Under the pieces are notes generated by a model. The model had not been told where the DNA came from. It made no database searches and worked only from the letters and a program-made list of their open reading frames with translations. A stretch of 64,000 nt of DNA from the human T2T-CHM13v2.0 reference genome, Homo sapiens: assembly GCF_009914755.1 (NCBI RefSeq), contig NC_060947.1; one strand, 5' to 3'. Shown piece by piece: positions 31,801 through 34,144 of the stretch (its first letter is position 1; each line of letters opens with the position of its first letter). A program made the position numbers and the translations under genes.

Positions 31801-34144
31801 CCAAAAATGTCTCCAGACATTCTCCACTGTCAATTGCAAACTCACCCCTTGTTGAACACCACTGATAGACACTAATCCCTAATATCAACTAACCAATGAA
31901 ATGCTGTACCTCTTGTTGTATGAGAAGAAGAAACAGACATCTTCTCAAGTCTATGAGAATGGCTTTTAACTAATCAACACCTTGATTAACCAGTAGAAGG
32001 CATATTTAGTGATGATTCGCTTATGACTGCCTGTACCTCACCGGGACAAAATTGTGGTTTGTTAGAGAGTCTTTAGCCACAAACAGAATAACAACCACTG
32101 GCTTATATTGCAAAAAGGATATGGGAAATTCTATAGATATTGGAAAGAAAAATATATTATAAGAAGTCTAGGCCGGGTGCGGTGGCTCATTCCTGTAACC
32201 GCAGCACTTTGGGAGGCTGAGGCAGGCGGATCACCTGATGTCAGGAGTTCAAGACCAGCCTGGCCAACATGGTGAAACCCCGTCTCTACTAAAAATACAA
32301 AAAATTAGCTGGGCGTGGTGGTGGGCGCCTGTAATCCCAGCTACTTGGGAGGCTGAGGCAGGAGAATTGCTTGAACCCGGGAGGCGGAGGTTGCAGTGGG
32401 CCAAGATCACGCCATTGCACTACAGCCTGGGCAACAAGAGCGAAACTCCATCTCAAAAAAAAAAAAAAAAAAAAGTCTATACCTACTCTGATGCCATTAT
32501 CTTGAGATGTCTTAGATATGAATAAAAAGTCATTCCACTCATTATGAGAACTGTCTTTAGAAGAAAATTATACTGAATTATACCATAGGAATATCTCTAG
32601 GTTTTGAAAATCATATACCCAGAGATGATTCCATAAATAAGGAATCAGGCAAAAAACCAAAGGAATTCATTGGTGAGAGGAGAGTGTTAGGGATCTCATT
32701 CCCCTGCAACTACTGGCTGACCCCAACCCTGCATTGCAAAACACTTGGCCCCCTCTGACCTCAAAAAGCATTTGGTGCTTCCTCATTAAGCTCTATTTAT
32801 TGTCTTTACTATTCACCCATCTGCCTCAGTCTGGGCCAAATCTATTGCCCAATCTTCAATTGGTTGCGACTTTTTTGTCTCTTCCCGATTCTGGCATTCC
32901 AGAGGGTCAATAGGTTCCTTCTCCACGTGCTTTTGAGGGAAATGCCCCCCCCCAAAAAACTTTTCACACCACCTTGAACAGACTCTAAACTTAGGCACTA
33001 CAGTTACTAAGCAGCCTTTGGATTCTTTGTTTTTGAAGTTAGATCTTTTCAGCTATTAGTGGAAAATGTGCCTCACTCTACTCCAGGATTACCAATAGAA
33101 ATGAAAGGACAGAAATGGCATTAGTGTTTAGAGAAGATTATGTATATATGGCTGTGTGAACACTGAAAATTATGAGGGTCAACATAAAATCAGCATTACA
33201 GGTACTAAAACATAAATCCTGATGGCTTTCACCGTTTTCTTAAGAGCAAAATTGCAAAAAGTGATATTAACAGTCATCCTAGACGAATATGAGCAAATGA
33301 TTTGTTTTTCCTTAAAAGAGCCTCCAAGTGTATTGTGATCATTTTCACACTGATCAAAGAGAGCACCCTTCTGTCAACAGGTATCTGCAGTTTTCAGGAC
33401 CTGGCAGAAATTCTTCTATGTTCTGCCTTTAAAGGTCAGGTACAAAAGCAGAGACAGCTGCCAGGCCCCTCTGCCCAGAGCTAAGTGTCTGGGACCATGA
33501 GTGGGAAGGACAGGCTTGAGCCTCCTTGGTCCTCCAGACAGCATGGGGCGCTACTTGCCCCTTCTGCAGCTGCACGCGGCAAAGCTGTGGCCTGGCCGTG
33601 GCCTCCTGCCCCATGCAACAGTTGGTGGACAGACCGTACCTGGCACACGGCGCCTTGTGCACTTTCCAACATTTTGATGCTAACCGTCGCTAGTCACTGA
33701 GCCCTGACATTTGATCTCTGGCCTTGACCGCAGATTTCGGAAACTTCTGGCAGCCCAGTGTCTACTGGAAGGCCCAAGCCGCTTGCCAGAAAGCTGCGCC
33801 CCGCCCAAAAGCACTGGGTTCTGCAGTCCAGGCCCTTCCTCAGCTCCCAGGTCCAGGAGAACTGCAAGGTCACCTACTTCCACAGGAAGCACTGGGTCCG
33901 CATCCGGCCCCTCCGCACCACTCCTCCCAGCTGGGACTACACCCGCATCTGCATCCAGAGAGAGATGGTCCCCGCCCGCATCCGCGTCCTGAGAGAGATG
34001 GTCCCCGAGGCCTGGAGGTGCTTTCCCAACAGGCTGCCGCTGCTGAGCAACATCAGGCCTGATTTCTCCAAGGCTCCCCTGGCCTACGTGAAGCGGTGGC
34101 TTTGGACCGCCCGCCACCCCCACAGCCTGTCCGCAGCCTGGTGA
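19734..34144 (+). CDS. Putative spliced 195-aa ORF join(19734..19814,23916..24011,33734..34144); inactive CA5B-like chimeric protein, translation unproven
   Basis: 27 codons ([27 protein letters not shown], shifted frame) + 32 codons in CA frame + 136 codons ([16 protein letters not shown]...HSLSAAW*); all junctions AG/GT and phase 0. ATG context is weak (cttATGa). Confidence 0.45.
19945..20805 (-). mobile_element. Old L1M 3' fragment split by an antisense Alu (~20185-20480)
   Basis: L1M 3'UTR motifs (aagtacatttccattagtg, gagtggaatcatacagtatttgtc) either side of a poly-T-led Alu. Confidence 0.8.
22000..22742 (-). mobile_element. MST-like MaLR LTR with internal sense Alu (~22243-22556)
   Basis: tatcttaatccatttgtgttgctgc...aaaccatagca; aatcagttct flanks the Alu. 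Confidence 0.8.
22800..23505 (-). mobile_element. Two antisense Alus (~22800-23110, ~23195-23505)
   Basis: Poly-T-led reverse Alu consensus, twice. Confidence 0.9.
23916..24011 (+). pseudogene. CA5BP1: CA5B-like exon, intact, 96 nt
   Basis: tttcag| ... |gtaaaa; encodes [32 protein letters not shown], including the His119-equivalent zinc ligand. Confidence 0.95.
24320..24625 (+). mobile_element. Alu inside a MER33/MER3-like DNA element (~24165-24960)
   Basis: Alu dimer with long poly-A; flanking aaaactttt duplicated. Confidence 0.88.
25042..25345 (+). mobile_element. Alu
   Basis: Alu consensus with A-tail. Confidence 0.92.
26627..26689 (+). pseudogene. CA5BP1: Decayed CA5B-like exon, 63 nt, in-frame stop
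   Basis: ctttag| [20 protein letters not shown] |gtagta; TAG at 26651-26653 (recalled CA5[22 protein letters not shown]). Confidence 0.88.
27340..28175 (-). mobile_element. L1 (L1PB-like) 3' fragment
   Basis: Minus [32 protein letters not shown] is L1 ORF2 C-terminal-like; followed by L1 3'UTR. Confidence 0.9.
28561..28721 (+). pseudogene. CA5BP1: Decayed CA5B-like exon, frameshifted, 161 nt
   Basis: ggccag| [23 protein letters not shown] ... frame change ... [18 protein letters not shown] |gtacgt; the GSLTTPP active-site motif is destroyed. Confidence 0.9.
29320..31330 (+). mobile_element. Highly decayed L1M ORF2 fragments
   Basis: A-rich tract with L1 ORF2-like motifs (agggtttattccagtaatccacagatggttca; gaaaacatttgcaac). 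Confidence 0.6.
31660..31864 (-). mobile_element. MER20-like
   Basis: tctcaacctcagcaccactgacattg...ctgtcctgtgcattgcaggatgttt...aaaatgtctccagacatt. Confidence 0.8.
32171..32473 (+). mobile_element. Alu with target-site duplication
   Basis: Alu dimer; aagtcta on both sides. Confidence 0.93.

What the first reader, a model, noticed from the sequence alone, without database searches (positions are those of the whole stretch)
33734..34144. Non-carbonic-anhydrase terminal exon with a strong coding signature (~90% GC3)
Seen: an open frame after acceptor accgcag| in which, by hand count, 87 of 97 codons from 33851 to 34141 end in G/C, well above the local GC level and in an AT-rich neighbourhood; then a stop, a GC-rich 3'UTR and AATAAA at 34651. 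A second in-frame acceptor (cccttcctcagctcccag|G) lies at 33850/33851. The Arg/Trp/Pro-rich peptide ([21 protein letters not shown]...[24 protein letters not shown]) matches no family I recognise. Inference: a remnant or living exon of a separate, poorly characterised protein gene captured by the CA5B duplicate.
Basis: partly seen in the sequence, partly recalled or inferred. Interest (0 to 1): 0.8.

Follow-up and report, generated by a model that had tools for sequence, protein, structure and literature searches.

The report
Dead POM121-like gene ends CA5BP1
The strongly coding-looking last exon of the CA5BP1 pseudogene is the decayed remnant of a nucleoporin-related (POM121-like) gene that now mainly supplies the transcript's splice acceptor and polyadenylation signal, so it is an ordinary gene fossil and not a new protein.

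Summary
In 33851-34141, 87 of 97 codons end in G/C, against 52 and 50 at positions 1 and 2. No other stretch of the window has comparable periodicity.

The peptide belongs to a known family. The exon lies in a 1.6-kb unit (33094-34692) with five other human copies, one inside the CLTRN span 56 kb upstream and four on chr13. A chr13 copy keeps a 247-aa ORF starting MGNYLS. That ORF aligns from Met1 with the chr6 POM121-family gene (BLASTP 7e-31; Pfam PF15229 1.3e-39 on chr6). Mammalian relatives are named POM121-like protein 12 or 2.

The window copy is disabled in four ways:
- A 49-nt deletion removed the start codon.
- A frameshift creates the TGA at 34142.
- 150 nt encoding the family's best-conserved motif are missing.
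- The homology continues past the stop in another frame.

The high GC3 is therefore fossil codon bias. The exon now gives CA5BP1 its acceptor and AATAAA. In the spliced RNA it closes a 195-codon chimeric ORF.

"No known family" is not. Interest is low.

The parts
33094..34692 (+). Whole POM121-like unit shared with the four chr13 copies (about 70% identity). Only the part from about 33500 is GC-rich.
   Evidence: blastn of window 31001-37000 against the chr13 loci: 33094/33104-34175, 34162/34179-34292 and 34332-34692. Boundary alignments.
33734..34673 (+). CA5BP1 terminal exon (given annotation). The acceptor ccgcag|A at 33733/33734 lies inside the leader of the POM121-like unit.
   Evidence: Hub annotation. 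Splice context. The ..GCAG|A motif is present in all six human copies. The junction of rhino model P0081 aligns to 33731.
33734..34144 (+). In NR_026551.2 it is the 3' end of a 195-codon ATG ORF that starts in exon 3.
   Evidence: Near-identical 184-aa and 128-aa database proteins P0012 and P0011, 99.3% and 98.4% identical.
33783..33784 (+). Site of a 49-nt deletion that removed the family's start codon (ATG GGC A/G.C TAC CTG = MG[NSG]YL) and shifted the leader's frame.
   Evidence: Six-copy alignment. Pairwise alignment with the CLTRN-span copy. All five other human copies have the ATG in the alignment. Three of them matched the MG[NS]YL search.
33806..34120 (+). Core that is still in the ancestral POM121-like frame (QKHW...WLWTARHP). 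GC3 is 0.89.
   Evidence: 54-66% amino-acid identity to chr13 copies. EAWRCFPNR...[12 protein letters not shown] aligns with chr6 POM121-family residues 74-111, E 8e-4. GC by position.
33952..33990 (+). Net 39-nt in-frame expansion with a 33-nt tandem duplication ([11 protein letters not shown] / [11 protein letters not shown]). Present in both human chrX copies and absent from the chr13 copies and three New World monkey proteins.
   Evidence: repeat cores at 33958 and 33991. P0006, P0007 and P0010 lack it.
34110..34144 (+). Indel zone in a C-run that shifts the frame. The TGA at 34142-34144 is an out-of-frame reading of the L-V-T codons of the family motif [11 protein letters not shown].
   Evidence: Alignment columns 801-850. 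Sequence and frames. Three different downstream frames among the copies.
34126..34278 (+). Continuation of the POM121-like coding homology after the stop, in another frame: [45 protein letters not shown].
   Evidence: Frame 34066-34374 gives Pfam PF15229 E 6.8e-5, 23.2 bits (cut-off 27), nt 34189-34278. tblastn of rhino P0081 residues 255-288 hits 34177-34278.
34178..34179 (+). Site where 150 nt present in two chr13 copies are missing from both chrX copies. That stretch encodes the family's conserved PDPCA(K/R)ET.LKALSQC.KG.RKFD.PLWFE motif.
   Evidence: Alignment columns 876-1025. The motif is seen in P0009 and most relatives.
34651..34656 (+). AATAAA polyadenylation signal used by CA5BP1. 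The exon ends at 34673.
   Evidence: Not intact in the two chr13 copies aligned there.
33230..35483 (+). Patch homogenised with the CLTRN-span copy: 86-100% identity, with 34315-35483 nearly identical. It sits inside an old duplication whose flanks are only 63-67% identical.
   Evidence: 100-nt identity profile. blastn block 34316-35533 at 99.75%.

Best explanation
The exon is a pseudogenised copy of an X-linked POM121-like gene. This is an intronless relative of the nucleoporin gene POM121, of the type that NCBI names POM121L12 or POM121L2 in other mammals. An old tandem duplication copied a segment running from the middle of the CLTRN span, through the intergenic DNA, to CA5B exons 1-6. That event placed a copy of this gene just downstream of the truncated CA5B copy. 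The truncated CA5B copy (CA5BP1) is still transcribed. Because it lacks its own 3' exons, it splices into an acceptor in the POM121-like leader (33734) and ends at the AATAAA at the unit's 3' end (34651). The 90% GC3 is fossil codon bias. Positions 1 and 2 were once held by amino-acid constraint and position 3 by GC-rich codon usage. Too few substitutions have accumulated to erase that pattern, and gene conversion with the sister copy may help preserve it. As a protein-coding unit the window copy is dead: the start codon is deleted, the frame is shifted before the conserved [11 protein letters not shown] motif, and 150 nt of the most conserved motif are gone. The 195-codon ORF in the mRNA is an accidental chimera of three pieces. 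The first is 27 codons of CA5B exon 3 that do not match the carbonic-anhydrase translation of that exon. The second is 32 true carbonic-anhydrase codons. The third is the terminal-exon frame, of which only 33806-34120 is still in the POM121-like frame. Shown: the homology, the lesions, the duplication map and the ORF structure. Inferred: the order of events, the role of gene conversion, and the lack of protein function.
For: Copies and family. There are six human copies. The chr13 28.00-Mb copy has a 247-aa ORF, P0009, that starts MGNYLS. P0009 against the chr6 open frame gives BLASTP 7e-31, 37% identity over residues 1-211 against 1-221. That chr6 frame scores 136.8 bits on Pfam POM121 PF15229. 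The chr7 copy scores 30.4 bits on PF15229, and its orthologues are named POM121-like protein 12. The window's downstream frame gives a sub-threshold PF15229 hit, E 6.8e-5. A search of 1.84 billion representatives found 28 relatives at E<=0.001. Of those named, nearly all are 'POM121-like protein 12' or '2'.

Tree. The human chrX pair (96*) groups with three New World monkey sequences (99*). This group lies inside an anthropoid clade (99*) of a larger mammalian clade, distinct from true POM121L12 (support 93).

Lesions.

Duplication map. Colinear blocks chrX:15228074-15249920 match window 32485-50651. Decayed CA5B exons 2-6 lie upstream in the window.

Substitutions. Differences between copies are evenly spread over codon positions: 7/7/6, 17/16/18, 18/17/19 and 11/10/12, chi-square p>0.9.

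ORF structure of NR_026551.2.
Against: Model-based dN/dS in the true frame is below 1: NG86 0.41-0.67 over the six main pairs (0.27-0.85 over all 15), YN00 0.23-0.42, ML 0.27-0.37. In the two wrong frames it is 0.5-1.9. My neutral simulation shows these estimators are biased low for this composition: median NG86 0.70, YN00 0.49, ML 0.56. Even so, the observed ML values lie at or below its 5th percentile of 0.38. Some purifying selection during the history separating the copies is therefore likely, and I cannot date when it stopped.

The ORF has stayed open, with only 1-2 amino-acid differences, in two other database proteins of unknown species (P0012, P0011). The stop lies in the last exon, so by established knowledge the mRNA would not be an NMD target.

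Neither the finding's own frame nor the window's downstream frame reaches the Pfam gathering score.

No orthologous genomic DNA from other species could be examined, so no PhyloCSF or true orthologue dN/dS was possible.
Confidence: 0.82

Rival explanations
1. A living coding exon. Hominoids would translate a chimeric 'inactive carbonic anhydrase 5B-like' protein whose C-terminal 136 residues come from this exon and have acquired a new function.
For: NR_026551.2 contains a 195-codon ATG ORF with its stop in the last exon. Near-identical conceptual proteins exist in public databases (P0012, P0011), and an Aotus model is named 'putative inactive carbonic anhydrase 5B-like protein'. ML dN/dS for the window copy against the CLTRN-span copy is 0.37.
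Against: Only 32 residues are in the carbonic-anhydrase frame. The first 24 and last 7 codons of the exon are outside the POM121-like frame. The 20 differences from the sister copy are spread 7/7/6 over codon positions, and 14 of them are non-synonymous. All three + frames are open for 94-138 codons here, so openness carries little weight. RefSeq files the gene as a transcribed pseudogene (given annotation).
Confidence: 0.06
2. A compositional artefact, or a gene on the minus strand. The periodicity would be chance in a GC-rich island, or would belong to the 173-codon minus-strand open frame at 33680-34201.
For: The minus strand has the longest open frame in the region. GC-rich DNA has few stop codons.
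Against: The periodicity statistic is 36-40, against a maximum of 20 at start positions outside 33100-34700. In the minus-strand frame the GC-rich position would be codon position 1 (arithmetic). All homology to annotated proteins is in + strand frames.
Confidence: 0.01
3. A dispersed repeat or transposable-element fragment, not a gene relic.
For: The unit is multi-copy, with six human copies. The POM121-related family spread by retroposition according to PMC3942032 (abstract, opening sections and search passages read).
Against: There are only six copies, at two loci. The chr13 copies sit inside larger local duplications (87-90% identity over the full 3.3-kb loci). Relatives are single-copy-like annotated mammalian proteins. 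No repeat library could be run here.
Confidence: 0.02

Closest known systems
POM121L12 (human chr7 single-exon gene; name taken from orthologue names)
   Same: Same family and same architecture. It is a short protein with the motif order EAWRRFP ... W.ARNPR ... SPVT(I/V)KIAPPE ... PDPCAKETVL.ALSQC.KG.RKFDGPLWFE ... RPSAFKP...FVPRPGPL. P0009 hits it at E 1.6e-16, 46% identity.
   Different: It lies in a different clade of the tree. The human chr7 ORF is intact at 312 aa and reaches the Pfam cut-off (30.4 bits). The window copy has lost its start codon, its frame and one motif.
POM121L2 (human chr6 open frame; gene name recalled, supported by 'POM121-like protein 2' names)
   Same: The N-terminal 220 residues align from Met1 with the chr13 copy (E 7e-31). 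The window core aligns to its residues 74-111.
   Different: It is much longer (open frame 1140 aa) with a full PF15229 domain (136.8 bits). The window unit covers only the N-terminal part.
POM121-related retrogenes NPAP1, NPAP1L and UPF0607 (PMC3942032; abstract, opening sections and search passages read)
   Same: Intronless derivatives of POM121 that lack the transmembrane domain and spread by retroposition and duplication in placental mammals.
   Different: That paper does not mention copies on X or chr13 or any link with CA5B: 0 occurrences of 'POM121L', 'chromosome X', 'chromosome 13', 'Xp22' and 'CA5B'. Only weak similarity to loci of that kind was seen here (chr5 hits, E 0.1-0.9).
'Putative inactive carbonic anhydrase 5B-like protein' (conceptual CA5BP1 product; human entry name recalled, Aotus name seen)
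   Same: It is this ORF. P0012 (184 aa) is 99.3% identical to the terminal-exon translation.
   Different: The name implies a carbonic-anhydrase relative. About 105 of its residues are in fact POM121-like and only 32 are carbonic-anhydrase-like.

Membership tests
POM121 / POM121-like family (Pfam PF15229 and its N-terminal extension) | Significant sequence similarity to bona fide family members | tested here: met
   Window ORF against the chr13 copies: E 4e-30 to 9e-27, 61-66% identity. chr13 ORF P0009 against the chr6 PF15229 protein: E 7e-31. Window core against chr6 directly: E 8e-4. 28 relatives were found; of those with a source name, nearly all are called POM121-like.
POM121 / POM121-like family (Pfam PF15229 and its N-terminal extension) | Pfam PF15229 match at or above the gathering score (27 bits) | tested here: not met
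   The finding's own frame has no hit at E<=10. The downstream frame 34066-34374 scores 23.2 bits, E 6.8e-5. The feature is met by relatives: chr6 136.8, chr7 30.4, P0092 34.6 and P0074 27.4 bits. The profile starts downstream of the region the finding covers.
POM121 / POM121-like family (Pfam PF15229 and its N-terminal extension) | Own start codon with the MG(S/N)(Y/F)L N-terminus | tested here: not met
   Deleted in the window copy (49 nt at 33783/33784). Present in the other five human copies, in chr6 (MGSFLS) and in most relatives.
POM121 / POM121-like family (Pfam PF15229 and its N-terminal extension) | Conserved PDPCAKETVL.ALSQC.KG.RKFDGPLWFE motif | tested here: not met
   150 nt are missing at 34178/34179 in both chrX copies. 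They are also missing in New World monkey proteins P0007 and P0010.
POM121 / POM121-like family (Pfam PF15229 and its N-terminal extension) | Uninterrupted reading frame through the [11 protein letters not shown] and RPSAFKP..FVPRPGPL motifs | tested here: not met
   Both motifs are present (34126-34278) but in a different frame from the core. The TGA at 34142 results from the shift.
Alpha-carbonic anhydrase (PF00194) | Similarity of the terminal exon to carbonic anhydrase | tested here: not met
   No Pfam hit. Carbonic-anhydrase-like pieces lie only upstream, at 11994-12128, 19616-19813, 23913-24014, 26627-26683 and 28534-28733.
Processed retrocopy (for the X-to-chr13 or chr13-to-X relation) | Homology ending at a polyadenylation site, followed by an A-tail and flanked by target-site duplications | tested here: inconclusive
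   chrX-chr13 homology ends at 34692, 19 nt past the annotated 3' end. The chr13 copies continue with A-rich runs. The 5' edge at 33094 abuts what looks like an L1 3' end in the chr13 copies (my reading of the sequence, no repeat tool run). No clear duplications were seen.

The most novel reading that the evidence does not exclude
CA5BP1 may not simply be a dead CA5B copy that happened to capture an exon. It may be the decayed human version of an old (boreoeutherian) chimeric transcription unit. In that unit the promoter and 5' exons of a partial CA5B duplicate drive an X-linked POM121-like gene, which is still intact in some mammals. The support comes from gene models in other orders that join a CA5B exon-6 copy to a POM121-like exon. 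In the rhinoceros model P0081 (PF00194 + PF15229) the junction aligns to the human acceptor, and the POM121-like ORF there keeps every family motif. The lynx model P0108 makes the same kind of join. Dog and fox CA5B isoforms P0096 and P0097 place a mini-exon between the exon-6 copy and CA5B exon 1. The human window also holds decayed CA5B exons 5 and 6.
Probability: 0.35. Interest if true: 0.45.

Novelty: new member of a known kind. Interest (0 to 1): 0.25.

Why it matters
The result explains an odd coding signature in a well-travelled locus next to ACE2 and CLTRN, and it corrects a misleading label. Most of the conceptual 'carbonic anhydrase 5B-like' protein is a POM121-like relic. It adds six undescribed human loci to the POM121-derived gene family; the two on chrX are not in the supplied annotation, and no annotation of chr13 was available to check. 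It also gives a clean example of a truncated duplicate gene borrowing the acceptor and polyadenylation signal of a neighbouring dead gene. For genome scans it is a reminder that strong GC3 periodicity marks coding ancestry, not present coding function. If the chimeric unit proves old and intact in other mammals, it would be a case of a gene copy recruiting a duplicated host promoter.

Tried and rejected
- Pfam on the finding's peptide alone gave nothing. The family appeared only after paralogues were found in the genome.
- Word-based protein search with the chr13 ORF gave only 7 hits. The exhaustive search was needed.
- dN/dS as a decisive test did not settle the question. NG86, YN00 and ML disagree in size and are biased low for this composition, according to my neutral simulation. 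That simulation rests on assumed parameters: kappa 3, S-to-W bias 1.6, CpG x8, 60 replicates. YN00 returned a value for only 39 of the 60.
- Direction and mechanism of the chrX/chr13 transfer (retroposition or DNA duplication) stayed undecided.
- Timing of the chrX/chr13 split is unresolved. The tree places it within anthropoids (quick search, several forks open), but about 30% DNA divergence looks older.
- Literature searches found no paper that links CA5BP1 with POM121. The one co-mention, PMC9279823, was seen only in the search listing and not read. The terms 'CA5BL', 'carbonic anhydrase 5B-like' and 'carbonic anhydrase VB-like' had no occurrence in the 15 papers listed of 38.
- The minus-strand ORF and the second acceptor at 33850/33851 were considered and set aside.
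- No structure prediction was run, because these regions looked unlikely to give a confident fold.
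Full report
**1. Observation**

- The acceptor accgcag|ATTTCG lies at 33733/33734. The frame is open to TGA at 34142-34144. AATAAA is at 34651.
- For 33851-34141, G/C counts per codon position are 52, 50 and 87 of 97. Position 3 against positions 1+2 gives Fisher p = 6e-11.
- A sliding 97-codon periodicity statistic reaches 36-40 only for starts between 33732 and 33877. At start positions outside 33100-34700 its maximum is 20.
- The exon sits in a GC island, 61-66% GC over 33501-34500, within 31-46% GC surroundings.
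- Openness of the frame adds little. All three + frames are open for 94-138 codons here, and the minus strand for 173.

**2. Relatives within the genome**

A DNA search of the window's own assembly found a near-copy on chrX at 15229069-15230428. That is 56 kb upstream, on the + strand, inside the span of the minus-strand gene CLTRN. It also found four copies on chr13, minus strand, at 28.00, 28.26, 28.43 and 28.56 Mb.
- chrX-chr13 homology runs from 33094 to 34692 at about 70% identity.
- The chr13 copies are 87-90% identical to one another over the full 3.3-kb loci.

In the six-copy alignment, all five other copies carry ATG GGC ... The window copy has a 49-nt gap exactly there, at 33783/33784.

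**3. Family**

The chr13 28.00-Mb copy has a 247-aa ORF from that ATG, P0009. Searching the genome with it found two further loci:
- chr6:27.18 Mb, E 2e-23, inside a 1140-aa open frame.
- chr7:53.20 Mb, E 1.6e-16.

The chr6 frame scores 136.8 bits on Pfam POM121 (PF15229) and the chr7 ORF 30.4 bits, against a cut-off of 27. BLASTP of P0009 against the chr6 protein gives 7e-31, 37% identity from Met1 to residue 211/221. The shared motifs include EAWR.FP, HPRP, VT(V/I)(K/R)I.PP, ET.L.AL..C.KGK and SAFKP......FV.RPGPL.RSLHS. The window core aligns directly with chr6 residues 74-111 at E 8e-4.

Orthologues of the chr7 ORF are named 'POM121-like protein 12'. An exhaustive search with the chr13 28.56-Mb ORF found 28 relatives at E<=0.001. 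Of those named, nearly all carry POM121-like names.

The Pfam profile starts further downstream.

**4. The relic continues past the stop**

Window frame 34066-34374 reads ...[45 protein letters not shown]... It gives PF15229 at E 6.8e-5, 23.2 bits, below the cut-off, over nt 34189-34278. The lesions are:
- An indel in the C-run near 34110-34125 shifts the frame. The TGA at 34142 is the out-of-frame reading of CTG GTG ACC, the L-V-T of [11 protein letters not shown].
- Both chrX copies lack the 150 nt that in the chr13 copies encode the family's best-conserved motif, PDPCA(K/R)ET.LKALSQC.KG.RKFD.PLWFE. New World monkey proteins P0007 and P0010 share this loss.
- Both human chrX copies carry a net 39-nt in-frame expansion that includes a 33-nt tandem duplication (REMVPA / REMVPE). 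It is absent from the chr13 copies and from the monkey proteins.
- The CLTRN-span copy keeps the ATG but is frameshifted by a 22-nt insertion.

**5. How the exon came to belong to CA5BP1**

chrX:15228074-15249920 is colinear with window 32485-50651. Upstream in the window lie CA5B-like exons 2, 3 and 4 and decayed exons 5 (26627-26683, with a stop) and 6 (28534-28733).

The simplest reading is one old tandem duplication of about 56 kb. It would span the mid-CLTRN region with its POM121-like unit, the CLTRN 5' end, the intergenic DNA and CA5B exons 1-6. That leaves a POM121-like copy just downstream of the truncated CA5B copy.

The flanks of the two chrX units are only 63-67% identical, so the event is old. 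The stretch 33230-35483 is 86-100% identical, and 34315-35483 almost perfectly so, which indicates repeated gene conversion.

Splicing the annotated exons gives a 195-codon ATG ORF with three parts:
- 27 codons of exon 3 that do not match the carbonic-anhydrase translation of that exon.
- 32 carbonic-anhydrase codons, [11 protein letters not shown]...GVFLK.
- The 136 terminal-exon codons.

Near-identical conceptual proteins are already in public libraries (P0012 at 99.3% and P0011 at 98.4%).

**6. Constraint**

Raw differences between copies are evenly spread over codon positions: window against CLTRN-span copy 7/7/6; chrX against chr13 17/16/18 and 18/17/19; chr13 against chr13 11/10/12. Chi-square p is above 0.9 in each case.

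Against this, dN/dS in the true frame is below 1:

| Method | True frame | Neutral simulation, median |
|---|---|---|
| NG86 | 0.41-0.67 (six main pairs; 0.27-0.85 over all 15) | 0.70 |
| YN00 | 0.23-0.42 | 0.49 |
| ML | 0.27-0.37 | 0.56 (5th percentile 0.38) |

In the wrong frames dN/dS is 0.5-1.9. The simulation started from the majority sequence. The estimators are therefore biased low for this composition, yet the observed ML values are still at the low edge of the neutral range.

I read this as purifying selection during part of the history, when the gene was alive. There is no usable signal for the recent window lineage, which has only 20 differences. The human chr13 28.00-Mb ORF is 89.5% identical to the Pongo protein and 87.2% to the Macaca protein. 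From recalled neutral divergences, that is no better than neutral expectation.

**7. Wider family picture**

In a quick IQ-TREE of 50 rows, true POM121L12, including human chr7, forms one clade (support 93). A second clade (87/96*) holds armadillo, rhinoceros and donkey, carnivores, bats, camel, rabbit, lemur, caviomorphs and a 16-row anthropoid clade (99*). Within the anthropoid clade the human chrX pair (96*) joins three New World monkey sequences (99*), next to the chr13-type sequences.

Several members of the second clade come from contigs of 121-141 Mb. Four gene models involve CA5B sequence:
- Rhinoceros P0081 carries PF00194 + PF15229. Its junction aligns to window 33731.
- Lynx P0108 also fuses a CA5B exon-6 copy to a POM121-like exon.
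- Dog and fox CA5B isoforms P0096 and P0097 start with an exon-6 copy, then a short exon (VIRFLQAIW...), then normal CA5B. That short exon resembles the unit's leader as read in Aotus P0006 (MIRFLKLLAAQ). This last similarity is suggestive only.

Together these suggest, but do not prove, that the layout 'partial CA5B, then POM121-like, then CA5B' predates the primate-laurasiatherian split.

**8. Literature**

- PMC3942032 describes POM121-derived retrogenes (NPAP1, NPAP1L, UPF0607). I read the abstract, background and methods in part 1, plus the search passages. Its text has no occurrence of POM121L, chromosome X, chromosome 13, Xp22 or CA5B.
- PMC13253961 reports that Pom121l12 and Pom121l2 knockout male mice are fertile (passages read).
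- No paper in the searched library links CA5BP1 with POM121 beyond one co-mention, seen in the listing only. The older names gave nothing relevant.

**9. Verdict**

It is a fossil of a POM121-like gene, reused as the 3' end of a transcribed pseudogene. The family is known. These particular loci appear undescribed in the searched literature, and the two on chrX are absent from the supplied annotation. Interest is low, with a moderately interesting open question about an old CA5B-POM121-like chimeric unit.

Noticed in passing
L012:1105-1845 (minus strand; chr13:28.00 Mb in the assembly): One of the four chr13 POM121-like copies keeps an intact 247-aa ORF (P0009) with every family motif. It ends at the same ...EPPREL stop as proteins predicted in Macaca nemestrina (P0074, 87.2% identity) and Pongo (P0095, 89.5%). 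The other three are truncated, have stops, or carry Alu or other insertions. I could not check whether the human locus is annotated.
   Followed up: partly
window 33230-35483 against chrX:15229069-15231261 (L010, L028, L029): A mosaic of gene-conversion tracts between the two chrX copies. Identity is 86-100%, with only 3 mismatches over 34315-35483. The tracts sit inside a duplication whose flanks are 63-67% identical. The most recent tract extends 0.8 kb beyond the exon.
   Followed up: partly
window 32485-50651: This stretch is colinear with chrX:15228074-15249920, the 5' half and upstream region of CLTRN, at 73-93% identity in blocks. The window therefore probably holds an unannotated partial CLTRN duplicate on the minus strand. 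CLTRN exons were not mapped.
   Followed up: no
window 26627-26683 and 28534-28733: Decayed CA5B-like exon 5 ([18 protein letters not shown], with a stop) and exon 6 (...[13 protein letters not shown], with a frameshift) lie between CA5BP1 exon 4 and the terminal exon. Exon 6 falls within the alternative-transcript exon 28196-29038.
   Followed up: partly
proteins P0081, P0108, P0096, P0097 (other mammals): Rhinoceros and lynx gene models fuse a CA5B exon-6 copy to a POM121-like exon. Dog and fox CA5B isoforms begin with an exon-6 copy plus a mini-exon before normal CA5B. Automated names in this clade switch between 'POM121-like protein 12', 'POM121-like protein 2' and 'carbonic anhydrase 1-like'.
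   Followed up: partly
chr5:34.31-34.43 Mb of the assembly (L047-L053): Seven hits spaced about 20.4 kb apart. Six lie in 1273-aa open frames and one in a 527-aa frame, and all match the RPSAFKP...FVPRPGPL part of P0009 weakly (E 0.4). They may be the UPF0607-type POM121-related genes of PMC3942032.
   Followed up: no
window 34779-34800: A G-run (GGTGGGGGGGGGAGGGGGGA) lies just downstream of the exon and is shared with the CLTRN-span copy.
   Followed up: no
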